From the NCBI GenBank assembly GCA_002309015.1, contig DBWM01000010.1:62501-126500 (forward strand): a stretch of DNA of 64,000 nt, read 5' to 3'. The position numbers and the translations under genes were made by a program. Source of the DNA: Myxococcales bacterium UBA1238. Lineage in GTDB: Bacteria; Myxococcota_A; Bradymonadia; UBA7976; UBA1532. Position 1 is the first letter of the stretch. Each line of letters begins with the position of its first letter. Shown in pieces: positions 3,218-33,287 of the stretch. The notes beneath the pieces were generated by a model that made no database searches, had not been told where the DNA came from, and saw nothing but the letters and a program-made list of their open reading frames with translations.

Positions 3218-5434
3218 TTACTTGAACAGGCTCATAGAGACGGTGACACCCGCCGTAACGATGGCGACCATGCTCATCAGCTTGATCAGGATGTTCAGAG
3301 AAGGACCAGAGGTATCCTTGAAGGGGTCGCCAACGGTATCGCCAACGACGGTCGCCTTGTGGCAGTCAGATCCTTTGCCACCAAAGTTGCCCTCTTCAAC
3401 ATATTTCTTGGCGTTGTCCCATGCACCACCGGAGTTCGCCATAAAGACGGCCAGAACGAAGCCGCAGGAGAGACCACCAATCAGCACGCCGAGCACGCCA
3501 GCCACGCCCAGGACCACACCGGTAATGACCGGAACCAGGATCGCGAGGATGGAAGGGAGCAACATTTCGCGCTGAGCGCCACGAGTGGAAATGCCTACGC
3601 AACGGGCGTAGTCGGGGGTACCCTTGCCTTCAAGGATGCCAGGGATCTCTTTGAACTGACGGCGGACTTCCTCCACCATCTTCTGTGCAGCACGGCCAAC
3701 CGCGTTCATGGTGAGTCCGCAGAACACGAATGCCATCATCGCGCCGACGAATACACCGACCAGCAACATCGGGTTCATCAGGTTGACGTTGTAGTTATTC
3801 ATGAAGTCGATAAGGGTCATGCTCTTGATCTGGGCGAGCGTAGCCTCAGCATTGCCCACCACGATCTTGGCCGCTTCACCCGCCTGCTCGGCCATACGCA
3901 CGAGGGCAATCTTAATCTCTTCAACGTAGGAAGCGAGCAATGCAAGGGCCGTAAGGGCGGCAGAGCCGATGGCAAAGCCTTTGCCCGTAGCGGCGGTAGT
4001 GTTGCCCAAAGCGTCCAATGCGTCGGTGCGCTTGCGGACTTCCGGTTCCAGACCGCTCATCTCAGCGTTGCCGCCTGCGTTGTCAGCGATCGGTCCGTAT
4101 GCGTCGGTCGCAAGGGTGATGCCCAGGGTAGAGAGCATGCCGACTGCGGCGATGCCGATGCCGTAAAGGCCGGTAGAGAGGTTTGCAGCCGTGAATTCAA
4201 CATGGAAGCCATTGGCGCAGAGATACGACAAAACGATCGCAATACCGACCGTAACGACCGGAATGGCGGTAGAAATCATGCCCAAACCGAGGCCCGAAAT
4301 GATGACTGTGGCGGGTCCGGTCAGTGAACTCTCAGCAACCTTTTGCGTGGGCTTGTAGGTCTGGGAAGTGTAAAACTCGGTCGCCTTACCGATGATGACA
4401 CCGGCTACGAGGCCCGAAATGACCGAGCAGGAGAGGCCAACGGCGTTCGGGATATCGAGCAGCTTAAAGATGCCAAAGGTGGCAAGGGCGATCAAAAACG
4501 CGGCGGTATTGGTTCCGCGTGCGAGGGCCTTGAGCAGTTCTTTCATGCCCGCGCCTTCTTTGGTGCGGACCAAAAAGATACCGATGAGCGAGAGGACGAC
4601 GCCCACAGAGGCGATCATCATCGGGGCTATGACCGCTTTCATTTGCAGCGCACTGTTGGCTGCAAAGGCCGAAGCGCCCAAAGCCATGGTGGCAAGGATG
4701 GATCCCGCATAGGACTCATAGAGATCAGCGCCCATGCCAGCCACGTCACCCACGTTGTCGCCGACGTTGTCTGCGATCGTTGCAGGGTTGCGGGGGTCAT
4801 CTTCGGGAATGTTGTATTCGGTCTTTCCAACGAGGTCAGCGCCCACGTCGGCCGCCTTGGTGTAAATGCCGCCGCCCACGCGTGCAAACAACGCCTGCGT
4901 CGAAGCGCCCATTCCGAAGGTCAGCATCGTGGTGGTGATGGCGACCAAATCCCAGTCGGTCACCTGCGTTAAGACCAGGTACCATACGGAGACATCGAGC
5001 AATGCAAGGCCGACAACGACCAGACCCATAACGGCGCCCGAACGGAAGGCCACCTGCAAACCGTTGTTTAATGACTTCTGAGCCGCAGCAGCGGTACGGG
5101 CGGAAGCGTAGGTTGCAGTCTTCATCCCAAAGAATCCGGCAAGACCTGAGAAAAAGCCGCCGGTGAGGAATGCGAACCACACAATCTTGTTTTGAAGCCC
5201 AAGGAGAGACATGACGAAAAAGAACGCGGCGAGCACAGCAAAGACGATCAGCACGATCTTGTACTGTTGCTTCAGGTAGGCCATTGCCCCCTTGCGGACG
5301 TGGGCGGCGATTTCTTTCATCAAATCGGTGCCTTCGTCCTTCTTTTTCATCGATTTATAGAAGTAGAAAGCGAGGCTTAGAGCCACAATGGAGGCTGCAG
5401 GTACAGCCCAGAAAGCAGGTATTATATCACGCAT
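3218..5434 (-). CDS. hppA: Membrane-bound proton/sodium-translocating pyrophosphatase (V-type H+-PPase)
   Basis: 738 aa polytopic protein carrying the signature motifs [17 protein letters not shown] and DNVGDNVGD(V)AGMGADL. Confidence 0.93.
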
Positions 5435-5667
5435 TGAGATTCTCCTGCGCCGGGCGGGCGCGTGAACAAAACGCGGCCATTTTTAAATGATTTATTGCAG
5501 TTGGCAAGACTTCGTTGCGTTCGGGCATATTTTTGCGGGCATTTCATTTGCATTGGCTCAAAAGGGCGGGCTGGAGTATGAAGCGTCACTTTTTTTTGAA
5601 GGGGCTGCAGCGCTTTTGGAGCGCTTTTTGGGGATTGCAGAACGAAAGCGTTTTTGAATAGGGGCTT

Positions 5668-8600
5668 TTGATGTCGCTGAAGGTGATCGGGAGCAATCAG
5701 GTTTTCCATCTGGTCGATCGTCTGGCCGAGGATCTCGCGCAGGATCCGCCGGACTGGCACGACGAGGCGTTCGTGGTGGTGGAGGGGATCGGTCAGGGCG
5801 AGATGGCGAGGCGCGGGCTGGTGACGAAGATGGGGCTTTGCGCGGGGGTGAGGTTTCCGCTGCTGCGCGTGGCGATGAATCGCATCTGCGAGGCGGTGCT
5901 GCAATCGAAGCCGCTCACGTTTCCCAAGATTGTGGACTACGATCCCTGGTGCAGGCAGGGGATCACCTTCGCGCTGATGGAGGCGCTGCTGGATCTGACG
6001 CGCGATCCCAGGTTTCAGAAGCTTCGGTATTATTTGAGATCGGACGATCTGAACGTTTTGATCGGCGATCAGGCGCGGCCGCTGGGCGATCGAAAGCTGA
6101 TGCGGCTTGCGATGGAGATGACGCGGCTCTTTCAAAATGCGTCGATCTACCGGCCCGGGCTTTTGGAGGAATGGTCGCAGGGTAAAAACATGGGGCCGAG
6201 CGATGCGGAGGGGCATCAGACGACGCTGAACTCCGAGTTGCAGCGGTTGCAGCCCATTTTATGGCGCATGCTCAATGATCTGATTCAGGGGACGAATCCC
6301 GCAAAGCGTTTTGAGGAGGCGATCGCGTGTTTGCAGCGGGGTCAGCATCAGTTGGGCATCGATCGGATCGCGTTTTTTGCAATCTCAAACCTTTCGCCGC
6401 TTTACGCGTCGCTCATTCAGGCGCTTTCAAGAACGATCGACACGCATCTTTATTTATGGCTGCCGAGTCAGGAATATTGGGGCGATCTCTCGATGAAGAC
6501 GCTGAAGGAGCAGCGGCGTCTGGACGATGCGCATGTCAACGGGCTGCTTGCGGGATTGGGGCAGGAGGCGCGGAATTTTCAGAACGTGCGCATGGAACAG
6601 CTTTCGGACGGGGATGAGGACGAAGCGTTCATCGAGCCCAAAGGATTTGGATTGCTGGCTCACCTGCAGAGATCGGTGCTCCATTGCGAGACGAGGGCGA
6701 TCCCTTACGAGAGCGAAGACGATTCGGTGCAGTTTTTGTCTTGCTACGGCGATTTGCGGCAGGTGGAGGCGCTTCGCGACAGCTTATACCGGCTGTTTTC
6801 GAAGGATCAGACGCTGCAGCCGCGCGATGTGCTGGTGCTGACGCCGGATCTCGACACGTTTGGTCCCTTGTGTCAGTCGGTGTTTTCGCAGCCGATGACT
6901 TTGAGCGACGGGCGGAAGCTGAATTCGATGCCGTTTCGGGTGATCGGTCGCAGGATGGCGGCGCAGAATCAGATCGCGGAGACCTTGATCCGGCTATTTT
7001 TGCTGGCTTCGGATCGCGTAAAGGCTTCGGACGTGCTGCAGCTGCTGACGCTGGAGCCCGTGCAGCAAAAGTTTCACATCGATCCCGAGCAGCTTTCGAA
7101 GATTCGCGAATGGGTGGAGGCGTCGGGGGCGCGGTTTGGCATCGATGCGGCGCACCGCGAGCAGCTTCAGGCGGGATCGCGCGATGAATTCACGTGGAAG
7201 TTTGGGCTTCAGCGGATGGCGCTCGGTCTTTTGATGGAGTCGCCGCAGGGGGGCGCAGGGTTCTGTCACCGGATGCCTTTGAACGGCCCGCAGGTGGATC
7301 GGCCGCTCGCGCTTCATTTTTTGGCGTTCTGCGATCAGCTGTTTTTTGTGCTCTCAAATCTTCAGACGCCGCGCCGCTGGCACGATTGGGCGGAGTTTTT
7401 GCTGGGGAAGCAGGATGCGGAGGCAGAGGAGGGGGATTCAAACGAAAAAGGCGTGCTTGCAAGGCTTTGCGAGGTGACTTCAAAGACGCGCGAGCAGCTG
7501 ACCGACGTGTACGATCTTCTGATGCCGCTTTATGCAGAGCCGGGCGATCTGCTGATCGACAAGGGCGCGGTCTGGGCCTGGCTTGAGGAGCGGTTTGGTC
7601 ACGCGCCGAGTTATCGTATCGCGTCGCAGGCGATGCTGATCTCGGATTTTCAATCGCTTCGGGGCGTGAGCCGCAGGGTGATCGCGCTGCTCGGGATGGA
7701 TGAGGGCCGCTTCCCCAGAAAAGATCGTGCCGTGCATTTCGATTTGATGGCCGCGTATCCGAAGGTGGGGGATCCTTCGCCGCGTTCGGAGGATCGGTTT
7801 TCGTTTTTGCAGGCGATCCTTTCGGCGGGCGATCACCTGATCGTGATCTATTCGGGGCATCACATCGTGGATCGCTCGGTGCTGTTTCCGGCGCAGCCCG
7901 TTCGCATGCTGTTTTCGGAGATCGATCGCGCGCTGCAATGCGATGAAACCGATGAGCCTCACCAGAAGCTGATTCAGGAGCAGAGGCTGCACGCGTTTTC
8001 GACGGGGCATTTTCTGGAGTCGGATCCCCAGAGACAAAGCTTTGATGCGCAGATGCTCAAGGGGGCAAAGGCGCTTTTGCAGAGCAAGCGGCAGCCGCAA
8101 AAGAAGCTCTTTCAAAATCCGCTGCCGCCATATCTTTCGGACGAGCAGCGGCATCTCGGGGCAAACGGTCTTTCGGTTCCGCTGTTGGTTGACGCCCTTT
8201 GCCATCCGCAGCGCCGGCTTTTGAGCGATCGGCTGGGGATAGAGCTTTTGAGCAGCAAGGAAGGGGCGCCGATCGCCGATGAAGATCGCTCGAAGCTGAA
8301 CAAACTCGAAGAATGGACGGTGGGGCAGGATTTGGTGCAGCAGATCTGGCAGGAGGCGGAGCGGGAATCTGAAGAGGAGAGGCGATCGCAGGCGGTGCGC
8401 GAAGAGCCGGAGCAGATCGATCTCTTTGGCATGATGGATGCGGGCGGATTCAACGAGGCCGACGAGAAAGACAAGGCCGAAGCAGGCCAGCTTCAGGAAG
8501 GAAAACGGGCGAAAAACATCGATCGCGCCTACGAGCGCAATCTGGGATCGGGTCGCGTGCCCGCAGGCATGCCCGGAAAAGTGATCGTAAGGGATCTCTA

Positions 8601-9354
8601 CGACTGCGCAGAGCAGATTTGCCTTCGCGGAAGGGCCCATGTGACTCAGGCGCTCTGCGATCTGAAAAAACTGAATCTCCAGAAAGAGCTGGGGCCCTGG
8701 AGGCTTTACGACGAGATCGATCGCGTCTCGTGCAGGCAGCTCAACGAAACGCTTTCTCGGGAGGAGCGATCCTGGGCGCGGTTTCATGCGAGCGATTTGG
8801 ACGACGAGGTGAGCGACAGTGCGGTGCGCGTCGATTATGGAAGCCTTCGGGGAAAGCGCCTGCTGCGGCCCTGGATTCAGTTGTTGATCTGGACGGCGCA
8901 GTCGGGCGGTCTCAGGCGCAAAATGAACGTCGTGGTGGGGCGGTTGCTGAGCGATCGATTCGGTGATTTTGAAGACATCGAGATCGCGGTGCCGGGTGAA
9001 ACGGTCGAGGATCGCTACCGCTTTGCGATGCAGGCGCTCGAAGATCTGTTGCAGGTTTACGAGGCGGCGATGCAGCGTCCGGTGATGCTCTTTGAAGGGG
9101 CGTCCTTTGCGTATGCTCAGGCTTTATTTTTAGGGAAGCCGGATCCTTTGAAGGAAGCAGAGAAGCAGTTTTCAGATACGACCTTTGGCCTGGCCGAAAG
9201 TCAGCTGCCCGAAATGGAATTATGCTTTGGCAAGCTCGAGGGGCTGAAGAGTGAAAACGGTTTGGGCGGGCAGGATGAATCGGAGTTTAAAGATCTGGCC
9301 GAAAAAGTCTGGCTGCCACTGCTACAGGCGATGCGATCGGGTGGTACAAACTGA
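5668..9354 (+). CDS. recC: Exodeoxyribonuclease V gamma subunit RecC
   Basis: 1228 aa with a RecC-like N-terminus (VVVEGIGQGEMARRGL, ...FPKI). It sits in the same cluster as clear recB and recD, and its size fits RecC. Confidence 0.7.
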   Translation: MMSLKVIGSNQVFHLVDRLAEDLAQDPPDWHDEAFVVVEGIGQGEMARRGLVTKMGLCAGVRFPLLRVAMNRICEAVLQSKPLTFPKIVDYDPWCRQGITFALMEALLDLTRDPRFQKLRYYLRSDDLNVLIGDQARPLGDRKLMRLAMEMTRLFQNASIYRPGLLEEWSQGKNMGPSDAEGHQTTLNSELQRLQPILWRMLNDLIQGTNPAKRFEEAIACLQRGQHQLGIDRIAFFAISNLSPLYASLIQALSRTIDTHLYLWLPSQEYWGDLSMKTLKEQRRLDDAHVNGLLAGLGQEARNFQNVRMEQLSDGDEDEAFIEPKGFGLLAHLQRSVLHCETRAIPYESEDDSVQFLSCYGDLRQVEALRDSLYRLFSKDQTLQPRDVLVLTPDLDTFGPLCQSVFSQPMTLSDGRKLNSMPFRVIGRRMAAQNQIAETLIRLFLLASDRVKASDVLQLLTLEPVQQKFHIDPEQLSKIREWVEASGARFGIDAAHREQLQAGSRDEFTWKFGLQRMALGLLMESPQGGAGFCHRMPLNGPQVDRPLALHFLAFCDQLFFVLSNLQTPRRWHDWAEFLLGKQDAEAEEGDSNEKGVLARLCEVTSKTREQLTDVYDLLMPLYAEPGDLLIDKGAVWAWLEERFGHAPSYRIASQAMLISDFQSLRGVSRRVIALLGMDEGRFPRKDRAVHFDLMAAYPKVGDPSPRSEDRFSFLQAILSAGDHLIVIYSGHHIVDRSVLFPAQPVRMLFSEIDRALQCDETDEPHQKLIQEQRLHAFSTGHFLESDPQRQSFDAQMLKGAKALLQSKRQPQKKLFQNPLPPYLSDEQRHLGANGLSVPLLVDALCHPQRRLLSDRLGIELLSSKEGAPIADEDRSKLNKLEEWTVGQDLVQQIWQEAERESEEERRSQAVREEPEQIDLFGMMDAGGFNEADEKDKAEAGQLQEGKRAKNIDRAYERNLGSGRVPAGMPGKVIVRDLYDCAEQICLRGRAHVTQALCDLKKLNLQKELGPWRLYDEIDRVSCRQLNETLSREERSWARFHASDLDDEVSDSAVRVDYGSLRGKRLLRPWIQLLIWTAQSGGLRRKMNVVVGRLLSDRFGDFEDIEIAVPGETVEDRYRFAMQALEDLLQVYEAAMQRPVMLFEGASFAYAQALFLGKPDPLKEAEKQFSDTTFGLAESQLPEMELCFGKLEGLKSENGLGGQDESEFKDLAEKVWLPLLQAMRSGGTN

Positions 9355-9434
9355 ACATTAAAATGGAGATTTTCTCTTTTAAAATCGATTTGAATCGATT
9401 ATGGGTGCTTTACCTTGTTTGAAGGAGACATGCG

Positions 9435-10280
9435 ATGAAGCAAAAGCGTGTGCTGACGATTCAAGATATTTCTTGCGTGGGCCAATGCTCGCTTACGGTC
9501 GCCTTACCCATTTTGTCAGCAATGGGTCACGAGACGGCGATCTTGCCTTCGGCTGTGCTTTCAACACATACCGGCGGCTTTAAAGGGTTCACGTTCCGCG
9601 ATTTAACGGACGACATCGATCCGATCATGGATCACTGGCAAAAAGAGAACCTGCAGTTCGATGCGCTCTATACCGGTTATCTGGGCAGTCCCCGGCAGAT
9701 CTCTCTGATTGTCAACCATTGGGATCGTTTGAAGGCGCCGGGTGCGGTCACGGTCATCGATCCGGTGCTGGGCGACAAGGGAAAGCTTTACCCGGGATTC
9801 TCTTCGGAATTCCCCGATCTGATGGCCAGGTTCTGCGCAAACGCCGATGTGATTTTGCCGAACCTGACTGAAGCGTCGTTCATGCTTCACGAGGAATATA
9901 TTGAGGATCACCATACGCCCGAATATATCGAGCGCATTTTGAAGAAGCTCGTCGGACTGGGTTGCAAGCACGCATTATTGACGGGCGTCTCTTTCGAAGA
10001 GGGCAAGCTCGGCGTCGCAACGCTGAACGGCGACAACCAAAAGGTGAGCTACTACTTCAGAGATTTTATCGGCGGTGCCTTCCACGGAACCGGCGACGTC
10101 TTTGCAAGTTCGTTCACCGGCGCTTACGTGAACGGCAAGTCGCTTGAGGATTCCGCAAAGATCGCCGTCGATTTCACGGTCAAATCCATCGAATGCACCG
10201 TCGACGACAAGAGCCACTGGTACGGCGTCAAGTTTGAACAGGCTTTACCTTACCTTTGCAAGCTCTGCGGAACGATTTGA
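9435..10280 (+). CDS. pdxK: Pyridoxal/pyridoxamine kinase (PdxK/PdxY family, ribokinase-like)
   Basis: 281 aa. VLTIQDISCVGQCSLTVALPIL...YTGYLGS...VIDPVLGD...ILPNLTEASFML...GTGDVFASSF align motif-for-motif with E. coli PdxY. Confidence 0.75.
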   Translation: MKQKRVLTIQDISCVGQCSLTVALPILSAMGHETAILPSAVLSTHTGGFKGFTFRDLTDDIDPIMDHWQKENLQFDALYTGYLGSPRQISLIVNHWDRLKAPGAVTVIDPVLGDKGKLYPGFSSEFPDLMARFCANADVILPNLTEASFMLHEEYIEDHHTPEYIERILKKLVGLGCKHALLTGVSFEEGKLGVATLNGDNQKVSYYFRDFIGGAFHGTGDVFASSFTGAYVNGKSLEDSAKIAVDFTVKSIECTVDDKSHWYGVKFEQALPYLCKLCGTI

Positions 10281-10389
10281 TCGATCATAAAATCCAAAAA
10301 GCCGCATCTTCCTTTTGATTTGATTCGGCTTTGATTTATACTCGCAAATGAGCTCTTTGAAATTTGAGAGACGACCGCAACGAAGGTCA

Positions 10390-10735
10390 GCGAGCAAAAT
10401 CGATTGGAAGCATGGGCTGCGCGCTTCAGCAGCCCGTTCAAATTCGTTTGAAGACCCACCTCATCTCCATTGCAACCGCTCAAAATCGTTTTGAAGTGCC
10501 GGATCACCTGAAAGCAATCCATTCAAAATCTTTTGAGCGGCGATCCATTGAAAATGGATCCTCCTTAAAATCGTTCCCGCTCGCTGGCTATTGACTGTGC
10601 CGGTGCATCAAATCGATTTGAAGAAGCGGCATTTTGTAGAGCTGGTTCATAAAATCGATTTGAACAGCCAGCTATTGACAAGGCTGGTTCATCAAAATGA
10701 TTTGAACAGCCAGCATCACCAGAAACAGCAGCTTG
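10390..10735. repeat. Phased array (~43 bp period, >=7 copies) of a palindromic motif. Consensus is T(T)CAAAATCGATTTTGAA-like. Perfect copy: TCAAATCGATTTGA. Putative multi-site operator or iteron-like array.
   Basis: Copies centred near 10400, 10445, 10488, 10530, 10614, 10657 and 10700. The last three units are near-identical 43-bp tandem repeats (ctggttcat[c/a]aaatcgatttgaacagccagc). An extra isolated copy, ttcaaattcttttgaa, lies at ~11707-11722, 60 bp upstream of recB. Confidence 0.6.
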
Positions 10736-10848
10736 AACGCCATTTTGAGCGTTTTTTTGGCTTGAAACTTGCGTGTTTAAGTCAATTTAACTCCAAACTC
10801 TGTGAATCACCGCGCGAATCTGCGCATTTTTTGCAAAGGAGCTCCACG

Positions 10849-11631
10849 ATGAGCAAGGTCTTGAGTGTTAAGGGATCGGGTTTACGCAACGATGAGTTGC
10901 GAGGGTACTTTAATCGCTTGATGGCGATCCTCATCGCCTTCAACGCTCTGCGCGGTTCGAGAGGACAAAAACTCAAGGCGGCGCACGACGCTTACGTTCA
11001 GGCCATCGATGGATCGAGCGCATCCAAGCTTTCGATCCGCGAATTTGATTCGCCCTGCGATTTGGCCTGGCGTTCACTCAAAGCACAAGTCCGTGCCGAC
11101 TTGTTGCATCACAGCGAAACACGGCGCAGAGCAGGCGAGCAGATCGATGGCTTGCTCTCCCCATTGGGCAATCCCACCAACCTGAACTACGATCAGGCCT
11201 ACGGCTTGATTCAAAGGGCGATCTCGACGCTGGACGGACTCGATCCACAGATTTTAGTGGATGCCCATATCGACGACATCTTCGCCCATTTGCATGCCTG
11301 CTACGACAAATTTGTTGCAGCCCAGGCCTCAGAGATGGCCCGTCGCGCCAATCGTCCGAAGGGGGCCGTTCGTGAAGCCCGACTCGCCCTGCTCAAGGCC
11401 TGGTCGGGTTATGTGCCCGCTTTGGAGATGATTGCTGAAGATGAGCCCGAGGCTCAAAAGGCGATCGACCAGATCAACGCATTGGTGGCTGAGTCCAATG
11501 CAAAGATCGCCCAGCGAAAAGCGAACGATGACGACGATGAAAACGAAAAGAAATCGAAGGCTGAAGGCAAGACCGAGTCTCCGAAAGCCGAAGATCCCGT
11601 AGTCGACGTCGAAGTGATCGAAGAAGACTGA
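10849..11631 (+). CDS. Hypothetical protein with a strongly acidic C-terminal tail (DDDDENEKK...EDPVVDVEVIEED)
   Basis: The ORF track reports 10591..11631 from a TTG. Its N-terminal 86 codons are the translated palindromic repeat array (HQIDLKK...LVHKIDLNSQ), so the likely real start is the in-frame ATG near 10849 (MSKVLSVKGSG). No recognisable domain. Confidence 0.45.
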   Translation: MSKVLSVKGSGLRNDELRGYFNRLMAILIAFNALRGSRGQKLKAAHDAYVQAIDGSSASKLSIREFDSPCDLAWRSLKAQVRADLLHHSETRRRAGEQIDGLLSPLGNPTNLNYDQAYGLIQRAISTLDGLDPQILVDAHIDDIFAHLHACYDKFVAAQASEMARRANRPKGAVREARLALLKAWSGYVPALEMIAEDEPEAQKAIDQINALVAESNAKIAQRKANDDDDENEKKSKAEGKTESPKAEDPVVDVEVIEED

Positions 11632-11782
11632 ATTTAAGGTTCAGCCGTTGCGGCCGCCCTCTCAGATTTTAAAACTGAGCGCAGAGTTCAAAGCTCAGGC
11701 GGCCGTTCAAATTCTTTTGAAGCCTTTAATGTCTTTCAGTCAGATGCTCCAAACACCGAACGTTTAAAGAGATGGCCCAACG

Positions 11783-14700
11783 ATGACCGATCGAGAGATG
11801 CAAAATTACAGCGGTCAGGAAGAGATCGTCGATCAAACCACCTTGATCGAGGCGAGCGCGGGCACGGGAAAGACCTATAACATTACGGAGCTCGTGCTTC
11901 GGCTGCTGCTGGAGCGCCATTTTAAACTGGAGAAGATGCTCGTGGTCACCTTTACCAGGGCGGCCACAGCGGAGCTTAAGGAACGCATCGACGCAAGGCT
12001 TCAAAAGAGTCTGATCCTGCTGCAACAGCACAAGCAAGGGATCAATCTGGAAGAGAACAAGGAGTTTCAGCAGCTGCAGGCGAGCATCCAAAAAGGGGAG
12101 CTTCAGATCGATGAGGCGATCACCTGTCTTCAGGATGCGCAGGACGCGCTCGATATGGGATCGATCTCTACCATTCACGGCTTCTGCCAGCGCATCCTGA
12201 CTTCGTTCGGTTTCGAGACCGATATAGAGTTTGAATCCGAGCTGCAAAACAATGTGGACGATCTGATGGACGAGATCATCCACGACTATACGCGCCAAAT
12301 CTATGAGACCGACGATCCCGAATGGTATCTCTTCCTTTCGTCGCTCAACATCTTCGAGCCGAGCGATCCCTATTCGCGTCAAACGCTAAAGGACGCCGTA
12401 AAACAGCTCGTGCGCGATCCTCAGCTGGTTTTGGATCCCAAGCCTTTATCATGGTCGGCCATCAAAGAGCATTTCGACCGGCTGATGGTGCAGAAGGAAG
12501 AGACCCAAAAACAATTGCGCGCCCTCCGCGATCTCTACCTCAGCGATCCTCCGGTTTTTGAAAAGTCAGCGCCCACAGAAGCGCAGAGTCAGTCGTTCAA
12601 AAACCTGCTGATGTGCGATCCGGTCTTCTCACTCGATGCGTTTTTATCGCTCATCACCATGGGACAGGTGATCGATCAGTATTCGGGAGAGACCCTGCCT
12701 TGCTCGCTTTCAAGCCTTCCGGGCTGGTCCGGATTGCCGCCTTTTCGCAAATACACCCGCTTCGCATTTCAGTATGATCGCTGCAAAACCCCAAAGCAGG
12801 TCGATCATTTGCCAAAGATTGTGGAGCTGTTCGAAGATCTGGTCGTTCAGCTCGCGCGAAAGACCGATCCACCGTATTTTCCTGAGCTCCAGGACTGCGC
12901 GATCGCTACGGCCACAAAAGAGGTGTACGACCGGCTGATTTTAAAGAAGCAGCAAAAGGGTGTGATGACCTTCGACGATCTTTTGACGCGCTTGTCTGCC
13001 GCATTGTCGTCCGATCAGGGGCCTGAGCTCTGCCGGATGATCCGCGAGCAATACGACGCCGCGCTCATCGATGAGTTTCAGGACACCGATGACACCCAAT
13101 GGAAAATCTTTAGCCAGATCTTTCAGGGCAAACCCCTCTATTTAATCGGCGATCCCAAGCAGTCGATCTACGCGTTCCGAGGCGCAAACATCCACACGTA
13201 TCTCGCTGCCAAGCAGTCTGCCGGATCAAGACAGTTTACGATGCAGACCAACTGGCGATCAGATAAACCGCTCATCTGTGGCATGAACCAGCTCTTTGCC
13301 AATCCAAAGGCTTTCGGCGCTGAGGGCATCGATTACGTGCAGGTGCAGGCGTCCGAAAAACATTTGGAGAGTGGCTACGCTCAGGAGATCGGGGTTCAGG
13401 AAAAGCCGATTCAGATCCGTTATTTTGATGACGCGATTCAAAACGGATCGAGCGGCGATCCGATCTCGGGATCGGGTCAGCAATTGCCGCAGATCCTCTC
13501 GAAGGTGGTCGCGCAGGACATCCTCAGATTTTTGGAGACCCGGCCTTATTTAAAGTCGGACGATCCGCAAAAGATCGAGCGCGTGCATCCGGGGCATCTG
13601 GCCGTTCTGGTCAGTACCAACAACGAAGCGCTCGAAATGCAAAAAGCTCTCTTTCAGGTCAACATCCCTGCTGTGCTTTCGGGCATGGGATCGGTTTACG
13701 ATTCACAGGCGGCCATCGATTTACTCTATTGGATCGACGCCTGTTTAACGACCAACAACAGCAAAAAGCTCTGCACCTTCGCCTCAACCCCTCTCTGCAA
13801 CCTCTTCGAGGCACGCGATCTCGCGCTTTTAAATCAGCCTGAAGATGTTGAAGACGCGGATCAAATACAGGTGGAAGAGCGCTTTGAAACCCTGCGCAAC
13901 CGCTTGATCGAATGGCGAAAGCTGATCGAATCCCACGGCTTCCTCTTCACCTTCCATCAGATGATCGAGCAAATGGAGCTGCTCGAACGTCTGCTCTCTT
14001 TGACCGACGGTGAGCGCTACGTGACCGATCTCTTTCAGCTGGGCGAGCTCCTGTTCTGCGCCGAGCACGAGCAACATCTCAATCTGGATCAGCTGCGCGA
14101 ACATCTGGCGGCCGAAATCGCCAAAAAAAAGGACGATCTCGAAGGCAAGCCCGACATTCGGCAGCTTGAGAGCGACGATCACGCCGTCCAGATCATGACC
14201 GTCCATAAAAGCAAGGGCCTGCAGTTCCCCTTTGTATGGATTCCCTTTTTACTGAAGGGCGCATCCTTTCAAAAATCGTTCAGCGTCACCGATTTGAAGG
14301 AAGGATCGAAAGAAAAGAAGCTCTGCCTTCACAAATTCGATACCGAGCATGGCCAGGAGGCCGCAGTTAAAGAGCAAACCGATCTCGAGCAGGAGATGAT
14401 GCGCAAGCTCTACGTCGCATTGACGCGCCCGCAGCACCGCGTGACCGTCTATTTGGGCCAGATGAAGTCCGAGCAGTCCGAGCGGGCACCGTTAAAACGC
14501 CTGCTGAACATCCAGCCTCAGGAAAAGCCGTCCAAAAAAACGCCGAAAGACGCAGAAGCATTGGCGAAATGCAAGAGCCTGTTCGATGCGCTGCAGGCGA
14601 TCTCTTCGGAGTTCATCGAGATTTCGGCCTGTCAGCCTCCGATCGAAGGCGCATTCTGGCAGGATCCGTTTTTGGAAGCGCCGGAACTCTGCGCAGCCGA

Positions 14701-15712
14701 GTATTCGCGTCAAAACTGGGACCGAAGGTTTGCTACGAGAAGCTATTCGAGACTCGCAGAAGGCTGCCCTGAATCGCCGGTCGCCCATCCAATCCCCATC
14801 GATGGCCCGCCTCTGATCGATGGCGATGAGTCCAATGCGACAGAGGATCCGGAACTCGATTCAGACATCGAACAAAATGGAGAAGATGAGCCGGATATCG
14901 CGGAAGAAAGCGGCCTCCTTTTCAACGGACTCCCAAGAAACCGGCAGTTCGGCTCCGCAATTCACTGCCTCTTTGAAAACATCGACTTCTGCAACTACGT
15001 CAAACCCGGTTTTTGCGACAGCCCCGAGATGCGCCAGATCTCGCAGCTCTGTTTAAGGCGCGAAGGCCTCGTGCTCTCGGCCGAGGATCACCAGTCGGTG
15101 CGCCACGACGTCAAAACGCTGCTCGAAGCGCCGCTTTTGATCCCCGAGTTTCCGCATCTCTCGCTCTCTCAAATTTCAAACGACCGCCGCCGCTGCGAAT
15201 TTGAATTCGATCTCAGCGTTTGCAAGGGCGCTCTCTGGCGCATGGGCAGGGCTTGCAAGATCGAACGCTTCGCAGACATCATGGCAGCCGATCATTTTTG
15301 GGAAGAAGACTACCTGCCCAAATTAAAAGGTGTGCTCGCCACATGGGATGAGATCGCCGGCTATCTGACAGGCAGCATCGATCTCGTCTTTACATGCCCC
15401 GGCCAGACCATCGATCGCTACGTGATCGTGGATTACAAGACCAACAGCCTTGCAAGCTACCAGCCCAAAGATTTAAGGGCCGCCATGGCCTCTCACCATT
15501 ACTTCCTTCAGGGCTATATTTATATGGTCGCCCTCCACCGCTTCTTAAAGCAACGGCTTTTAACGTACGACTACGATCGGAACATGGTGGGCATCGAAAA
15601 TTTGTTCCTGCGCGGCATGGGCAGGGCAGGCGAGGGTTGCTATTTTTATAAGCCGTCCAAAGCGGTGATCGAGCAGCTCGACGCCCTTTTAGAGGGAGAG
15701 GATGCGGCATGA
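11783..15712 (+). CDS. recB: Exodeoxyribonuclease V beta subunit RecB (UvrD-type SF1 helicase plus C-terminal PD-(D/E)xK nuclease)
   Basis: 1309 aa. Walker A TLIEASAGTGKTYNITE, the SF1 helicase motif series, and the C-terminal nuclease motif IDLVF...VIVDYKTNSL. Confidence 0.88.
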   Translation: MTDREMQNYSGQEEIVDQTTLIEASAGTGKTYNITELVLRLLLERHFKLEKMLVVTFTRAATAELKERIDARLQKSLILLQQHKQGINLEENKEFQQLQASIQKGELQIDEAITCLQDAQDALDMGSISTIHGFCQRILTSFGFETDIEFESELQNNVDDLMDEIIHDYTRQIYETDDPEWYLFLSSLNIFEPSDPYSRQTLKDAVKQLVRDPQLVLDPKPLSWSAIKEHFDRLMVQKEETQKQLRALRDLYLSDPPVFEKSAPTEAQSQSFKNLLMCDPVFSLDAFLSLITMGQVIDQYSGETLPCSLSSLPGWSGLPPFRKYTRFAFQYDRCKTPKQVDHLPKIVELFEDLVVQLARKTDPPYFPELQDCAIATATKEVYDRLILKKQQKGVMTFDDLLTRLSAALSSDQGPELCRMIREQYDAALIDEFQDTDDTQWKIFSQIFQGKPLYLIGDPKQSIYAFRGANIHTYLAAKQSAGSRQFTMQTNWRSDKPLICGMNQLFANPKAFGAEGIDYVQVQASEKHLESGYAQEIGVQEKPIQIRYFDDAIQNGSSGDPISGSGQQLPQILSKVVAQDILRFLETRPYLKSDDPQKIERVHPGHLAVLVSTNNEALEMQKALFQVNIPAVLSGMGSVYDSQAAIDLLYWIDACLTTNNSKKLCTFASTPLCNLFEARDLALLNQPEDVEDADQIQVEERFETLRNRLIEWRKLIESHGFLFTFHQMIEQMELLERLLSLTDGERYVTDLFQLGELLFCAEHEQHLNLDQLREHLAAEIAKKKDDLEGKPDIRQLESDDHAVQIMTVHKSKGLQFPFVWIPFLLKGASFQKSFSVTDLKEGSKEKKLCLHKFDTEHGQEAAVKEQTDLEQEMMRKLYVALTRPQHRVTVYLGQMKSEQSERAPLKRLLNIQPQEKPSKKTPKDAEALAKCKSLFDALQAISSEFIEISACQPPIEGAFWQDPFLEAPELCAAEYSRQNWDRRFATRSYSRLAEGCPESPVAHPIPIDGPPLIDGDESNATEDPELDSDIEQNGEDEPDIAEESGLLFNGLPRNRQFGSAIHCLFENIDFCNYVKPGFCDSPEMRQISQLCLRREGLVLSAEDHQSVRHDVKTLLEAPLLIPEFPHLSLSQISNDRRRCEFEFDLSVCKGALWRMGRACKIERFADIMAADHFWEEDYLPKLKGVLATWDEIAGYLTGSIDLVFTCPGQTIDRYVIVDYKTNSLASYQPKDLRAAMASHHYFLQGYIYMVALHRFLKQRLLTYDYDRNMVGIENLFLRGMGRAGEGCYFYKPSKAVIEQLDALLEGEDAA

Positions 15713-17751
15713 AGCCCTCATTTGGAAATTCACCCGCAAGCCAGGAGCTCGACCGGCGCGCCGAACCCTTTTTAAAGGCCGGCGTCGTTCAGGATGGGCA
15801 TCTCTCGGCGATTAAACTCTTAAGCGATCTCTCCGGCGAGCAGCGCTACGAAACTTTATTGCTTTGCCTGCTCACGCTGGCTGCCCTCGATCGCGGCGAC
15901 GTCTGCTTCGATCTTTTGCAACCCGAGTCTCCGCTTCAGATTGAGTTGAAGAACGGCGTCACGTTTGAAGCGTTAAAAGCCTTTTTGCCCACGCATGCCT
16001 TTAAAGATCGCTCGCCCTTTTTGATGAGCCCCCTGATCGAGCGCTATGGTGAGCGATCACATTCAGATGAACGGCTGACAGCAGGCGAGGGGAGCGGGCC
16101 AAAAACGTTGGGTGCACCTGCATATCACATCGATCGCCCCTTCGTTCTGGATGGCCATCGCCTCTACCGGCAGAGATCGTACATCGAAGAGCGCCAGGTC
16201 TGCGATCGCTTAAACCAGCTGGCCCTTCAGACGCGCGAGACGGGCAGCCGCCTGATCGATGCCACCGCTTTAAACCGGGGACTCGACGCGATCTTCGGCA
16301 AAGCGAGCGATCAACCCGGAAGAAAAGCGGTCTTAGGCAGCTTTGACAGCGCCTTAACCGTCATTACCGGCGGCCCTGGCACCGGCAAGACCTGGACCGT
16401 CCGCAATTTGATCACCCTGCATTACATTCAGCGCGAGCTCGAACGCCTGAAGGATCCGCAGCTGCCCGAACTTTCGGTCGCCCTAGCGGCCCCCACCGGC
16501 AAAGCGGCCATGCGGATGGTCGAATCTCTGCAAAAGGATCTCGATCGCTTCATTGCGGAAACCGTTCCCAGACTTTTGGAGGGCCTGCCCTTAAAACCGG
16601 AAGGTCTTCAATTCTTTTTGGAGCATCTGCAGGCCTCCACACTGCACCGCCTTCTGGGCGTCCGCCGCTTCGATCCCGGATCCTTCGTCCATCACGCCCA
16701 AAACCCCCTCTGCCTCGATCTTCTGGTGGTCGATGAAGCCTCGATGATCGATCTCGCCCTCATGCGATCGCTGCTCCTCGCGGTTTCGGATCGCTCGCGC
16801 CTGATCCTGCTCGGCGATCCCAATCAGCTGGCCTCGGTGGAAGCGGGCAATGTTCTGGGCGATATCGTTTCAACAGAGCTCGATGCCTGCGCGGTCGGCC
16901 GTCAAATCTTCAGACTCACGGTGAACCACCGCGCAAAAGATGCTCCAAAACTCGCCGAATTCTCGGCCTTATGCTGCAACATCGACGCTGAGCAGGATGA
17001 ACAGGCGGCTGTAGAAAAAGTCGTCGGCTGCCTTCAAAACGAAGGTCAGATCCGCCTCTTAAGCTGGCCCTCCGAAACCTGCGCGATCCCCGACTCGATT
17101 CTAAGCGAGATCGTCGAACAATATTCGAGCTACATCGACTGCCTCTGCAAAGGCCCCGATCCCGATGAAAGCGAAGAGGATCATTTAAGCCGCGCCTTCA
17201 AACTGTTTTTAAGGTTCCGCGTCCTCTGCGCCCACCGCGACGGCCCCTTTGGGGTCTCCGGCTTAAACGCCGCCATCCTCTCCAAACTGCGTTTAAGATA
17301 CGGCATCCCCTTCAACCGCGAGCTCATCGGCCGTCCGATCCTCATCCTGCAAAACGATCCCCAAACGGGCCTCTTTAACGGCGACATCGGTCTCTGCGTC
17401 CAGCACGCCCAAAGCTTAAGGGTCGCCTTCCAAAGCCCCAGCCCGTCGCGCCCCTTCATGTGGTTCAGTCCCGCTCAGCTTCCCGATCACCAGACAGCCT
17501 TTGCGATGACGATCCATAAGAGCCAGGGATCCGAATTCGACCACAGCTTCGTCATCCTCCCGCCGAAGAAGAGCCCCATTCTGACGCGGGAACTCGTCTA
17601 CACCGCCGCCACCCGCGCCAAAACGCAATTAACCGTGGTCAGCGACAAAAACATCCTGACCGAAGCCTTAAAACAACGCGTCCTCCGCGCCTCAGGCCTC
17701 TCGGAACGCCTGATGATCTGCAAACAGCAGAAGGGGAGCCTGAACAAATGA
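15709..17751 (+). CDS. recD: Exodeoxyribonuclease V alpha subunit RecD
   Basis: 680 aa. Walker A TVITGGPGTGKTWTV and the C-terminal motif MTIHKSQGSEFDHSFVIL. Its start overlaps the recB stop (ATGA). Confidence 0.88.
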   Translation: MKPSFGNSPASQELDRRAEPFLKAGVVQDGHLSAIKLLSDLSGEQRYETLLLCLLTLAALDRGDVCFDLLQPESPLQIELKNGVTFEALKAFLPTHAFKDRSPFLMSPLIERYGERSHSDERLTAGEGSGPKTLGAPAYHIDRPFVLDGHRLYRQRSYIEERQVCDRLNQLALQTRETGSRLIDATALNRGLDAIFGKASDQPGRKAVLGSFDSALTVITGGPGTGKTWTVRNLITLHYIQRELERLKDPQLPELSVALAAPTGKAAMRMVESLQKDLDRFIAETVPRLLEGLPLKPEGLQFFLEHLQASTLHRLLGVRRFDPGSFVHHAQNPLCLDLLVVDEASMIDLALMRSLLLAVSDRSRLILLGDPNQLASVEAGNVLGDIVSTELDACAVGRQIFRLTVNHRAKDAPKLAEFSALCCNIDAEQDEQAAVEKVVGCLQNEGQIRLLSWPSETCAIPDSILSEIVEQYSSYIDCLCKGPDPDESEEDHLSRAFKLFLRFRVLCAHRDGPFGVSGLNAAILSKLRLRYGIPFNRELIGRPILILQNDPQTGLFNGDIGLCVQHAQSLRVAFQSPSPSRPFMWFSPAQLPDHQTAFAMTIHKSQGSEFDHSFVILPPKKSPILTRELVYTAATRAKTQLTVVSDKNILTEALKQRVLRASGLSERLMICKQQKGSLNK

Positions 17752-17822
17752 CGCTGATGCCTGAAACGCTGCGGTTGCTGGCGCTTCGATTCCGTTTAGA
17801 CCGCTGATCTGAGGAAGAGACG

Positions 17823-30159: not shown

Positions 30160-30296
30160 GGCGACTCCTGTGCAAAAAGCGCGTCATGTTATGGATCCTG
30201 CGTTGCGATGGCAAGGGCCTCGTGAGCTCATGATACCCTTGCGAATCATGGCGGGTTTTGGTAGGCCATGCCGTTTTACTCAAGGGAGATCAGCGA

Positions 30297-33091: not shown

Positions 33092-33287
33092 AGCGAGATC
33101 GAAAGCCGTCCCCCCCGGGGAAGTTGTCGCCGCATGCGCCGGAAGGGGAGCTGTAAATCAAAGTCAGTCTTCGATCGGAGCGAAATCAAAAGCCGTCCCC
33201 CCCGGGGAAGGTGGCCGCGTAGCGGCCGGAAGGGGACGAGTAAATCAAAGTCAGTCTGGGATCGGAGCGAGATCAAAGACCGATCCA
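33092..33287. repeat. Tandem ~87-bp structured repeat (2.2 copies) with nested hairpins, in a convergent intergenic region. REP-like element, bidirectional terminator or small RNA candidate.
   Basis: Unit: agcga[g/a]atca[a]aagccgtcccccccggggaag-[inner hairpin]-ccggaagggga-gtaaatcaaagtcagtct-gatcgg. The inner hairpin is GCGCATGCGC in copy 1 and GGCCGCgtaGCGGCC in copy 2, so sequence differs while pairing is kept. Outer stem: cccccccgggg/ggaagggga. Confidence 0.6.

What the first reader, a model, noticed from the sequence alone, without database searches (positions are those of the whole stretch)
10390..11725. Phased palindromic site array (43-bp period) embedded in the recBCD cluster
At least seven copies of a 14-16 bp perfect or near-perfect palindrome (TCAAATCGATTTGA, TCAAAATCGTTTTGAA, TTCAAATTCGTTTGAA, ...) are spaced every ~42-43 bp, about four helical turns, over ~350 bp. 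The last three units are 43-bp tandem duplicates. A second unrelated palindrome, GATCCATTgaaAATGGATC, sits in the middle at ~10545. One further copy (ttcaaattcttttgaa, ~11707) lies 60 bp upstream of the recB start. Such same-face phasing of dyad-symmetric sites is typical of cooperative operator arrays or iterons, not of random sequence. It lies immediately upstream of an unknown acidic-tailed gene, between recC/pdxK and recBD. The motif may therefore also regulate recBD expression.
Basis: seen in the sequence. Interest (0 to 1): 0.72.

Follow-up and report, generated by a model that had tools for sequence, protein, structure and literature searches.

The report
Phased repeat array partnered with DUF6261
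The array is real: eight copies of a 16-bp palindrome sit four DNA turns apart, and they belong to the unknown gene just downstream (family DUF6261) rather than to recBCD, because DUF6261 genes in two bacterial phyla almost always carry their own 41-43-bp repeat array, a pairing I found described nowhere.

Summary
Eight 16-bp cores (consensus TTCAAAATCGATTTGAA) lie at 10394-10706, spaced 43,43,42,43,42,42,42 bp. The strict motif occurs 6 times in 64 kb against 0.24 expected, all in this locus.

The gene downstream (10849-11631) belongs to Pfam DUF6261. In 30 of 36 distinct DUF6261 loci with enough upstream DNA, from Myxococcota-like gut MAGs and Bacteroidales, a 41-43-bp-period array lies directly upstream. 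Control loci gave 5 marginal signals in 455 kb. Array sequences differ between loci; period and position are conserved.

A DNA-level role fits best:
- Phase is kept while spacers decay (cores 66%, spacers 33-36% identical).
- Mismatches in the palindromes show no strand bias (G-U 38, A-C 39).
- Promoter-like sites mostly lie between array and gene.

Most likely this is a phased, cooperative binding-site array controlling the DUF6261 promoter. The binder is unknown and may be DUF6261 itself, although that protein is acidic, all-helical and has no recognisable DNA-binding fold. A type III toxin-antitoxin-like RNA array is the main rival. A general link to recBCD is not supported. I found no description of this gene-array pairing in the literature.

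The parts
5668..9354 (+). recC (context gene)
   Evidence: Pfam Exonuc_V_gamma E 1.9e-44 and RecC_C E 6.5e-22
9379..9394 (.). Isolated copy of the core palindrome, TTAAAATCGATTTGAA, 41 bp upstream of the pdxK-like ATG
   Evidence: Fuzzy motif search and sequence. 14 of 16 positions are self-complementary. 15 of 16 positions match unit 7.
9435..10280 (+). pdxK-like PfkB-family kinase (context gene)
   Evidence: Pfam Phos_pyr_kin E 5.7e-19 and PfkB E 3.3e-08
10315..10342 (+). Weak sigma-70-like promoter match upstream of the array (TTGATT-16-TATACT, 9 of 12)
   Evidence: Consensus scan. The number of such matches in the region equals the shuffle expectation, so this carries little weight.
10394..10706 (.). 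Phased array of eight 16-bp cores (u1-u8) with 26-27-bp spacers, period 42-43 bp
   Evidence: Sequence, motif statistics, register and spacing. Cores are 66% and spacers 33-36% identical pairwise. The array is identical in two other metagenome assemblies apart from a cluster of changes in units 1-2 in one of them.
10542..10560 (.). Unrelated palindrome GATCCATT-GAA-AATGGATC in the spacer between units 4 and 5
   Evidence: Read from the sequence. Arms of 8 bp, two GATC sites. Function not examined.
10735..10764 (+). Terminator-like hairpin (GAACGC...GCGTTT) followed by a T-run, just after the array
   Evidence: Consensus scan. The number of such sites in the region is near the shuffle expectation.
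10758..10773 (+). Sigma-54-like -24/-12 match TGGCTTGAAACTTGCG (8 of 11, GG-N10-GC)
   Evidence: Own scan. Found only in this species' locus, at none of the other DUF6261 genes' promoter regions. Weak lead.
10812..10835 (+). Short GC hairpin GCGCGAATCTGCGC plus T-run in the leader, just before the ribosome-binding site
   Evidence: Comparable short hairpins precede the ribosome-binding site in most related loci.
10835..10841 (+). Ribosome-binding site AAAGGAG, 7 nt before the ATG
   Evidence: Sequence. The same AAAGGAG/GGAGG feature occurs in homologous loci.
10849..11631 (+). DUF6261-family gene (260 aa; helical core, acidic C-terminal tail)
   Evidence: Pfam PF19775 E 3.6e-12. 167 relatives among 50%-identity cluster representatives. 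AF2 model pLDDT 92.9, nine helices. No significant solved-structure relative.
11706..11721 (.). Isolated copy of the core palindrome, TTCAAATTCTTTTGAA, 62 bp upstream of the recB ATG
   Evidence: The 28-nt stretch 11695-11722 is 86% identical to unit 2 with its flank (family D2).
11783..15712 (+). recB (context gene)
   Evidence: Pfam UvrD-helicase E 2.1e-50, UvrD_C, PDDEXK_1
15709..17751 (+). recD (context gene)
   Evidence: Pfam AAA_19, AAA_30, UvrD_C_2, RecD_N

Best explanation
The array is a cis-acting DNA element belonging to the DUF6261 gene downstream. It consists of eight dyad-symmetric sites (6-bp arms, 3-4-bp centre) set four helical turns apart, so all sites face one side of the helix. 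A dimeric sequence-specific protein binds them cooperatively. The resulting nucleoprotein complex sits just upstream of the DUF6261 core promoter and sets that gene's expression. Each DUF6261 paralogue carries its own array sequence, and DUF6261 is the only gene always next to the array. The most economical reading is that DUF6261 itself recognises its own array, as an autoregulatory or self-nucleating protein-site pair, much as SopB pairs with sopC or ParR with parC. In this genome the two extra single sites, before pdxK and before recB, would let the same complex touch the neighbouring promoters.

Shown: the array, its phasing, its family-wide association with DUF6261, and the DNA-type rather than RNA-type pattern of variation.

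Inferred: protein binding, cooperativity, the direction of regulation, and the identity of the binder. I put DUF6261 as the binder at about 0.3.
For: (1) Association. 30 of 36 distinct DUF6261 loci with at least 250 nt of upstream DNA have a 41-43-bp-period array within 800 nt upstream, and one more has it downstream only. 69 control loci (455 kb) gave 5 marginal signals of 0.50-0.52 (first seen). The loci come from Myxococcota-labelled gut and rumen MAGs and from Bacteroidales.
(2) Period. It is 42 bp in most arrays, 41 bp in the Bacteroidales clade and L023, and 42/43 bp in L024 and the window, while unit sequences are unrelated between loci. This equals 4 turns at 10.25-10.75 bp per turn.
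(3) Phase. In old arrays the phase is kept while the spacers decay. In the window, cores are 66% and spacers 33-36% identical with every gap 42-43 bp. In L004, 11 of 12 tracked units are exactly 42 bp apart at 43-69% unit identity.
(4) No RNA signal. In the main inverted repeat of 19 arrays, G-U type mismatches number 38 and A-C type 39. The arrays show no consistent strand skew relative to the gene.
(5) Promoters. Sigma-70-like promoters with at least 9 of 12 matches lie between array and ATG, at -84 to -104, in 6 of 22 loci and upstream of the array in 2 of 22. A Bacteroides-type TTTG/TATCTTTG promoter lies between array and ATG in L111 (read from the sequence).
(6) Site geometry. 6-bp arms with a 3-4-bp centre put half-site centres about one turn apart, as for dimeric DNA binders.
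(7) No other gene is conserved next to the array.
Confidence: 0.5

Rival explanations
1. Type III toxin-antitoxin-like RNA module. The array is transcribed from a promoter upstream of it. A terminator hairpin limits read-through into the DUF6261 gene. The ~42-nt RNA repeats bind and neutralise the DUF6261 protein, which would then be a new non-ToxN toxin or effector, possibly for phage defence.
For: The layout of array, then hairpin, then gene matches the published criteria for type III loci (PMC3401426). In the window a promoter-like site precedes the array, and two terminator-like hairpins with T-runs lie between array and gene. Short hairpins precede the ribosome-binding site in most homologous loci. 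A repeat length conserved within a family while the sequence diverges is also seen in toxIN, cptIN and tenpIN; cptIN repeats are 40-48 nt. From my reading of the translations, some neighbours look like restriction-modification or methylase genes; Pfam-confirmed examples are RE_HindVP, DNA_methylase and Vsr in L111. One published type III locus also has its repeats downstream.
Against: G-U against A-C mismatches are 38:39, so there is no sign of selection on an RNA hairpin in the sense strand. There is no strand skew. Promoter-like sites are mostly between array and gene. The window's spacers are unconstrained at 33-36% identity while the spacing is kept, whereas a ToxI-type unit is structured throughout. 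Copy numbers of 4-19 exceed the 1.9-5.6 of known families. The period range of 41-43 is far narrower than in known families, which span 31-62, 40-48 and 39-57. DUF6261 is acidic and all-helical, unlike the ToxN, CptN and TenpN endoribonucleases. It matches no PADLOC model apart from one weak SIR2 match for one homologue, P0039 (E 0.0029).
Confidence: 0.15
2. Sequence-independent structural or contingency element. Repeating any unit every four helical turns adds up its small intrinsic bend into curved DNA that modulates the adjacent promoter. Alternatively, gain and loss of units tunes or phase-varies DUF6261 expression. No dedicated site-specific binder is needed.
For: Array sequences are unrelated between paralogues, yet the period is fixed near 4 x 10.5 bp. 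Copy number differs between strains carrying the same gene: L110 has 2 units and L111 has 4. Some arrays lack a clear palindrome.
Against: In old arrays the core is selectively conserved in sequence while the spacers decay (L004). That points to site recognition rather than bending alone. The window array has the same unit number in three assemblies. Isolated single cores at 9379 and 11706 make no sense for a curvature element.
Confidence: 0.12
3. Centromere-like or chromosome-organising site, not primarily transcriptional. The array nucleates a large protein assembly, as sopC/SopB or parS/ParB do, for segregation, anchoring or local compaction.
For: The anatomy matches F-plasmid sopC closely: 12 direct repeats of 43 bp, each with a 16-bp inverted repeat bound by SopB (PMC3177203 abstract). 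The array can lie upstream or downstream of the partner gene.
Against: No ParA/SopA or ParB/SopB domain occurs in or next to the DUF6261 gene. A genome carries 3-4 such modules in chromosomal housekeeping contexts. The array DNA matches nothing in the plasmid or phage collections.
Confidence: 0.08
4. One reading: operators of a regulon that controls recBD (and pdxK), with the array incidental to the unknown gene.
For: Single high-quality sites lie 62 bp before recB and 41 bp before the pdxK-like gene.
Against: The multi-site array itself goes with DUF6261 across two phyla, and none of the 39 other distinct DUF6261 loci examined shows recBCD beside the gene. No further motif copies occur in the other 60 kb of the window. 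The rest of the genome could not be searched.
Confidence: 0.05

Closest known systems
F-plasmid sopC centromere with SopB (type Ia ParABS)
   Same: Direct repeats of 43 bp, each carrying a 16-bp inverted repeat that a dimeric protein binds, next to the gene of the binding protein (PMC3177203). The window array has a 42-43-bp period and 16-bp cores.
   Different: There is no ParA/SopA ATPase and no ParB-type HTH or CTPase domain. The context is chromosomal with several modules per genome. The array usually abuts a promoter. There is no sequence similarity to plasmid records.
Promoter-embedded iteron arrays of small centromere-binding repressors (ParR-parC of plasmid R1, omega heptad arrays of pSM19035); recalled from my own knowledge, not checked here
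   Same: Many tandem sites at or just upstream of the promoter of the operon that encodes the binder. Binding is cooperative and serves both autoregulation and complex assembly.
   Different: Those units are 7-11 bp and the binders are small ribbon-helix-helix proteins. Here the units are 41-43 bp and the candidate binder is a 230-260-aa acidic helical-bundle protein with no RHH detected.
Type III toxin-antitoxin loci (toxIN, cptIN, tenpIN, AbiQ)
   Same: A tandem nucleotide-repeat array immediately upstream of a protein gene, with a short palindromic hairpin between them and a family-typical repeat length (PMC3401426).
   Different: The protein is not a ToxN-like endoribonuclease. There are far more repeats. 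The variation pattern is DNA-like (G-U:A-C 38:39). Promoter-like sites lie between array and gene.
NtrC-type enhancer (UAS) upstream of sigma-54 promoters; recalled from my own knowledge, not checked here
   Same: Dyad-symmetric sites roughly 60-400 bp upstream of a -24/-12 element. The window has a TGGC-N7-TTGC match at 10758-10773.
   Different: The sigma-54-like match is 8 of 11 and absent from all other DUF6261 loci, which show sigma-70 or Bacteroides-type promoter matches. No enhancer-binding-protein gene is adjacent.
REP/BIME palindromic intergenic elements and CRISPR arrays
   Same: Palindromic units repeated at a regular interval in intergenic DNA.
   Different: REP/BIME elements are dispersed in hundreds of copies sharing one consensus. 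Here each array has a private sequence, and the motif is confined to one locus within 64 kb. CRISPR arrays need unique spacers, a longer period and, usually, nearby cas genes. Here most arrays repeat the whole unit, and Pfam names no Cas domain among the eight ORFs scanned from 3218 to 19373.

Membership tests
Pfam PF19775 (DUF6261), for the gene 10849-11631 | Score above the curated gathering threshold over most of the profile | tested here: met
   46.9 bits against a cut-off of 27, E 3.6e-12, profile positions 4-154 of 154. 167 relatives among representatives at E<=1e-3.
Phased cooperative operator array | Three or more similar sites spaced by an integral number of helical turns | tested here: met
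   Eight sites with gaps of 42-43 bp, i.e. 4.0 turns. Period 41-43 bp in 30 further loci.
Phased cooperative operator array | Sites conserved under selection while the intervening DNA is free to vary | tested here: met
   Cores 66% against spacers 33-36% pairwise identity, with phase intact.
Phased cooperative operator array | Position at or just upstream of the regulated promoter | tested here: inconclusive
   Consensus promoters lie between array and ATG in 6 of 22 relatives and in L111. In the window there are only weak matches, including a sigma-54-like 8 of 11. No transcript data are available.
Phased cooperative operator array | An identified cognate DNA-binding protein | tested here: inconclusive
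   DUF6261 is the only gene always adjacent. It is acidic and has no recognisable DNA-binding fold. Binding cannot be tested in silico here.
sopC-type plasmid centromere (ParABS type Ia) | ~43-bp direct repeats each with a 16-bp inverted repeat | tested here: met
sopC-type plasmid centromere (ParABS type Ia) | Adjacent parA/sopA and parB/sopB genes | tested here: not met
   The neighbours are recC, a PfkB kinase, DUF6261, recB and recD. No Par domains appear in the gene lists of the other loci.
Type III toxin-antitoxin locus | Tandem nucleotide repeats directly upstream of the protein gene | tested here: met
   Criterion taken from PMC3401426.
Type III toxin-antitoxin locus | Palindromic terminator between repeats and gene, with the promoter upstream of the repeats | tested here: inconclusive
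   In the window, terminator-like sites lie at 10735-10764 and 10812-10835, and a 9-of-12 promoter match at 10315-10342. In relatives the promoter-like sites mostly lie after the array.
Type III toxin-antitoxin locus | Toxin of the ToxN/AbiQ, CptN or TenpN endoribonuclease kind | tested here: not met
   Only DUF6261 in Pfam. No PADLOC model matches the window protein. The fold is all-helical with no significant PDB relative.
Type III toxin-antitoxin locus | Repeat units constrained as structured RNA on the sense strand | tested here: not met
   G-U 38 against A-C 39 mismatches in 19 arrays. No strand skew. No Rfam match.
CRISPR array | Conserved repeats separated by unique spacers, usually with cas genes nearby | tested here: not met
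   The period is only 42 bp. In most arrays the whole unit is repeated. Pfam names no Cas domain among the eight ORFs scanned from 3218 to 19373.
REP/BIME-type dispersed palindromic elements | Many copies of one consensus spread over intergenic regions of the genome | tested here: not met
   Within 64 kb the motif occurs only in three adjacent intergenic regions. Each related array has a private sequence. The whole genome was not available.
Replication-origin iterons | Adjacent initiator (rep) gene | tested here: not met
   No Rep domain among the neighbours. The 42-bp period is also about twice the ~20-bp iteron spacing I recall from my own knowledge. I did not look for DnaA boxes or an AT-rich unwinding region.
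Sigma-54 enhancer (UAS) | A -24/-12 promoter downstream of the sites, and an enhancer-binding protein | tested here: inconclusive
   TGGCTTGAAACTTGCG at 10758-10773 scores 8 of 11. No comparable match lies in the promoter region of any other DUF6261 gene. No enhancer-binding-protein gene is adjacent.

The most novel reading that the evidence does not exclude
DUF6261 plus its 41-43-bp array is a previously unrecognised, self-contained two-part genetic module found in Bacteroidota and Myxococcota-like gut bacteria. An all-helical protein of a fold not known to bind nucleic acids specifically recognises its own private array, as phased DNA or as repeat RNA. Paralogous modules co-diversify like cognate pairs. 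This would amount to a new class of sequence-specific nucleic-acid-binding protein, or a new RNA/DNA-protein addiction or defence system.
Probability: 0.3. Interest if true: 0.85.

Novelty: new variant of a known kind. Interest (0 to 1): 0.68.

Why it matters
A protein family with no known function turns out to have a fixed non-coding partner. The family has 167 relatives among 50%-identity cluster representatives and several copies per genome in gut and rumen bacteria. Its members include named Parabacteroides, Phocaeicola and Paludibacter proteins. The partner's only conserved properties are its position and a period of four DNA helical turns.

That gives a concrete handle for finding out what DUF6261 does, because protein and array can be tested against each other directly. 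It also offers a natural set of dozens of orthogonal site-protein pairs if the protein is the binder. Finally, it shows that tandem arrays next to genes, which Tandem Repeats Finder misses once the spacers have diverged, can be found by lag-identity scans anchored on a gene family.

Tried and rejected
(1) True orthologous recC-recB regions. I therefore could not compare the same intergenic region across species, and used a hand-built degenerate pattern for the DUF6261 motif NPTxLxYxxEYG instead.

(2) The search for homologous proteins with the window protein or the family alignment returned almost only the query itself. The exhaustive representative search was needed.

(3) Rfam found nothing relevant in the window region or in ten related loci.

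(4) The array DNA has no match in the plasmid or phage collections. None of the 4 viral-contig pattern hits was a true DUF6261 gene.

(5) The RNA fold z-scores of the intergenic region are -5.4 and -3.5 on the two strands. I set them aside as uninformative, because any palindrome-rich DNA scores this way on both strands.

(6) Sigma-54 enhancer idea. The -24/-12 match is confined to the window species.

(7) Fixed distance from the last site to the promoter. The distances vary from 70 to 121 bp, with no common register.

(8) Ribbon-helix-helix idea for the amphipathic N-terminal strand. The N-terminus is modelled with pLDDT 94 in the monomer, packed on the bundle, and nothing in Pfam or the PDB supports an RHH. 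I left it as speculation.

(9) Co-variation of protein and array. Unit similarity rises above background only for orthologues of at least 75% identity, which shared descent explains equally well.

(10) Outlying single sites in other loci. None was found, so the pdxK and recB copies are particular to this genome.

(11) Literature. Searches for DUF6261, 41-bp or 42-bp repeats and phased intergenic repeats found nothing on this pairing.
Full report
**1. The observation**

The stretch 10394-10706 contains eight copies of a 16-bp core related to TTCAAAATCGATTTGAA.
- Their starts are 43, 43, 42, 43, 42, 42 and 42 bp apart.
- Six cores are clear inverted repeats. Unit 1 is weakened and unit 5 keeps only one half-site.
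- The strict pattern TCAAA-N4-6-TTTGA occurs 6 times in the 64-kb window, all between 10438 and 11720. The expected count is 0.24, and no shuffle out of 100 reached 6.
- It also confirms the copy at 11706-11721, 62 bp before recB. That copy is 86% identical to unit 2 over 28 nt.
- The last three units are 42 bp apart, not 43, and only 65-76% identical.
- Tandem Repeats Finder does not report the array, because the 26-27-bp spacers are only 33-36% identical pairwise while the cores are 66% identical.
- The same array occurs in two other metagenome assemblies. One of them differs only by a cluster of substitutions in units 1-2.

**2. The surroundings**

Pfam confirms the neighbouring genes:
- recC at 5668-9354
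- a PfkB/Phos_pyr_kin kinase at 9435-10280
- recB at 11783-15712
- recD at 15709-17751

The gene right after the array (ATG 10849, ribosome-binding site AAAGGAG 7 nt before it) is a 260-aa member of Pfam DUF6261. It scores 46.9 bits against a cut-off of 27.

The window also encodes a DUF4215 (myxococcal cysteine-rich repeat) protein. The identical DUF6261 protein occurs in three metagenome assemblies and a 99%-identical one in the NCBI MAG GCA_016648615.1. From my own knowledge, one of those runs (SRR094437) is a cow-rumen metagenome.

**3. The key result: the array goes with the gene family, not with recBCD**

An exhaustive search found 167 relatives of the protein among 50%-identity cluster representatives. 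The first two homologous loci I could fetch already showed arrays of unrelated sequence but the same period:
- L006 has 6.9 copies of a 42-bp unit just upstream of the gene.
- L004/L005 have a degenerate 42-bp-periodic stretch downstream of the gene.

I then searched for the conserved peptide NPTxLxYxxEYG as a degenerate DNA pattern.
- In one-genome-per-species contigs this gave 43 loci. Nineteen are true DUF6261 genes by hmmsearch and 24 are chance hits, which serve as controls.
- In metagenome contigs it gave 53 loci, of which 12 are true and 41 are controls.
- A third sample came from the Bacteroidales clade around P0045. Members of that clade carry source names from Parabacteroides johnsonii, Phocaeicola oris and Paludibacter.

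I applied one uniform criterion: at least 50% identity at lag 41-43 over 105 nt, within 800 nt upstream of the ATG.
- 30 of 36 distinct DUF6261 loci with at least 250 nt of upstream DNA have an array there.
- One locus has an array only downstream.
- Five have none. One of these, L110, still has two units.
- 69 control loci (455 kb) gave 5 marginal signals of 0.50-0.52.

Arrays hold 4 to 19 units. The period is 42 bp in most, 41 bp in the Bacteroidales clade and L023, and 42/43 bp in L024 and the window. Unit sequences are unrelated between paralogues and become similar only between orthologues of at least 75% protein identity.

MAGs labelled 'Proteobacteria bacterium RGIG...' or 'Myxococcota bacterium' carry 3-4 such gene-array modules each. 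The neighbouring genes differ from locus to locus, and recBCD was seen only in the window.

**4. DNA element or RNA element?**

The layout of array, hairpin, then gene recalls type III toxin-antitoxin loci. Their published criteria are tandem repeats, then a palindromic terminator, then the toxin gene. Their repeats are 31-62, 40-48 or 39-57 nt long in 1.9-5.6 copies (PMC3401426). The window even has a weak promoter match before the array and two terminator-like hairpins after it.

Four tests argue for DNA instead:
- **Strand bias.** In the main inverted repeat of 19 arrays, transition mismatches split 38 G-U type against 39 A-C type. An RNA hairpin on the sense strand should favour G-U.
- **Composition.** The arrays show no consistent A/T or G/C skew relative to the gene.
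- **Promoters.** Sigma-70-like promoters with at least 9 of 12 matches lie between array and ATG, at -84 to -104, in 6 of 22 loci, and upstream of the array in only 2. In L111 a Bacteroides-type TTTG...TATCTTTG promoter lies between array and gene.
- **Phase.** Phase survives where sequence does not. The window keeps 42-43-bp gaps although its spacers are near random. L004 keeps exactly 42 bp over eleven consecutive gaps at 43-69% unit identity.

A period held at 41-43 bp across two phyla equals four turns of B-DNA. It is much tighter than the length ranges within type III families. No Rfam family matches.

**5. The protein**

- The AlphaFold2 model is confident (pLDDT 92.9) and consists of nine helices with a disordered acidic tail.
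- Foldseek against the PDB finds nothing below E 0.07.
- A profile search of PDB sequences finds nothing meaningful.
- NCBIfam gives only sub-threshold matches, PHROGs gives none, and PADLOC gives none for the window protein, only a weak SIR2 match for one homologue.
- Family members are acidic, with a median pI of 5.3.

There is therefore no positive evidence that DUF6261 binds nucleic acid. The case for it as the binder rests on two points: it is the only constant neighbour of the array, and each paralogue has its own array sequence.

**6. Most likely mechanism**

The array is a phased set of dyad-symmetric DNA sites. Each has 6-bp arms and a 3-4-bp centre, so half-site centres lie about one turn apart. 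All sites face one side of the helix and sit immediately upstream of the DUF6261 promoter. A dimeric protein binds them cooperatively, and the resulting higher-order complex sets DUF6261 expression.

The two isolated sites before pdxK and recB could tie the neighbouring promoters to the same complex in this genome. That is a local peculiarity, because no outlying sites were found in other loci.

My confidence in the DNA-level cooperative-array reading is about 0.5, and in DUF6261 as the binder about 0.3. The rivals are a type III-like RNA module (0.15), a sequence-independent curvature or copy-number element (0.12), a centromere-like organising site (0.08) and a recBD-centred regulon (0.05).

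**7. Comparison with known systems**

- The closest anatomical match is F-plasmid sopC, which has 12 direct repeats of 43 bp, each with a 16-bp inverted repeat bound by SopB (PMC3177203). Membership fails because there are no ParA or ParB genes and the context is not a plasmid.
- Type III toxin-antitoxin membership fails on the toxin fold and on the RNA-constraint test.
- CRISPR, REP/BIME and replication iterons each fail a defining feature (see the membership table).
- Literature searches for DUF6261 and for 41-bp or 42-bp repeat arrays found no description of this pairing.

**8. Verdict**

What matters is a conserved and apparently undescribed partnership between an uncharacterised protein family and a four-helical-turn repeat array.

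I rate it as a new variant of a known kind (phased binding-site arrays), with a real chance that it is something new in kind.

Limits:
- Everything here is computational.
- Promoters are consensus matches only.
- The sampling covers one motif-defined subfamily plus one Bacteroidales clade.
- The rest of this organism's genome could not be scanned.

Noticed in passing
window 42277-42422 and 56121-56277: Two further intergenic tandem arrays with a 22-bp period (two helical turns): 6.6 copies of GGCAACATTGAATCACGGCGCG and 7.1 copies of AGATCAGGTTCGCTGGCAGGGC. Each lies between convergent ORFs. One neighbour is DUF2062; the other three ORFs scanned have no Pfam match.
   Followed up: partly
window 33092-33277: 2.1 copies of an 87-bp repeat in the gap between a TPR protein gene (30125-33040) and an unannotated ORF on the minus strand.
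   Followed up: no
window 48889-49050, 36352-36540 and 63128-63306: Tandem repeats with periods of 42, 15/30/60 and 21 bp inside long ORFs. All periods are multiples of three, so these are probably coding repeats and distinct from the intergenic array.
   Followed up: no
L080 10780-11020: A 42-bp-period array with core TTCGGGTGGCACCCGAA lies between two convergent genes (a repeat protein and a transketolase-like gene by my reading of its translation). It is 3.3 kb from the locus's DUF6261 gene and differs in sequence from that gene's own array. Such arrays can therefore occur without an adjacent DUF6261 gene.
   Followed up: partly
L110 2350 versus L111 2264-2430: The same Bacteroidales DUF6261 gene and downstream region (99.5% identical) sit behind different upstream genes: aldo-keto reductases in L110, and a HindVP restriction enzyme, DNA methylase and Vsr in L111. 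Homology begins inside the array, which has 2 units in one and 4 in the other. The distal edge of the array is thus a rearrangement breakpoint, and copy number varies between strains.
   Followed up: partly
L031, L044, L023, L046, L111 (flanks of DUF6261 genes): Several DUF6261 modules appear to lie next to restriction-modification or DNA-methylase genes. By my reading of the translations these are HsdM-like, type IIG-like and MT-A70-like genes. Pfam confirms RE_HindVP and DNA_methylase in L111. In Parabacteroides johnsonii a frameshifted DUF6261 copy lies in a VgrG/PAAR/gp25 (type VI secretion) locus. I did not test this for enrichment.
   Followed up: no
L044 1-316: A close paralogue of the L027 and L031 proteins (near-identical over the first 20 residues) has four copies of a 79-bp long-palindrome unit upstream instead of a 42-bp array.
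   Followed up: no
Leaders of most DUF6261 loci, e.g. window 10812-10825, L015, L034, L040: A short GC hairpin (for example GGCA-NNNN-TGCC) sits 10-20 nt before a strong AAAGGAG/GGAGG ribosome-binding site in most loci. It could be an mRNA 5'-end stabiliser or an attenuator.
   Followed up: no
Array cores in window, L024, L027/L031, L080, L107, L108, L114: About a third of the independent arrays have inverted repeats whose outer bases are TTC...GAA, for example TTCAAA..TTTGAA, TTCACA..TGTGAA, TTCGGAA.TTCCGAA and TTCGGG..CCCGAA. This may hint at a shared recognition element across the family. I did not test it statistically.
   Followed up: no
L002 versus window, alignment columns 126-166 (window ~10406-10446): All but four of the differences between two assemblies of the same species fall in units 1-2 of the array. 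They include a change in each core (GATTGGAA to GATTTCAA; AATTCGTTT to AATTTTTTT). This looks like local conversion or relaxed constraint at the distal end.
   Followed up: no
window 10758-10773: A sigma-54-like -24/-12 match, TGGCTTGAAACTTGCG, sits where homologous loci have sigma-70-like promoters. It is present only in this species.
   Followed up: partly
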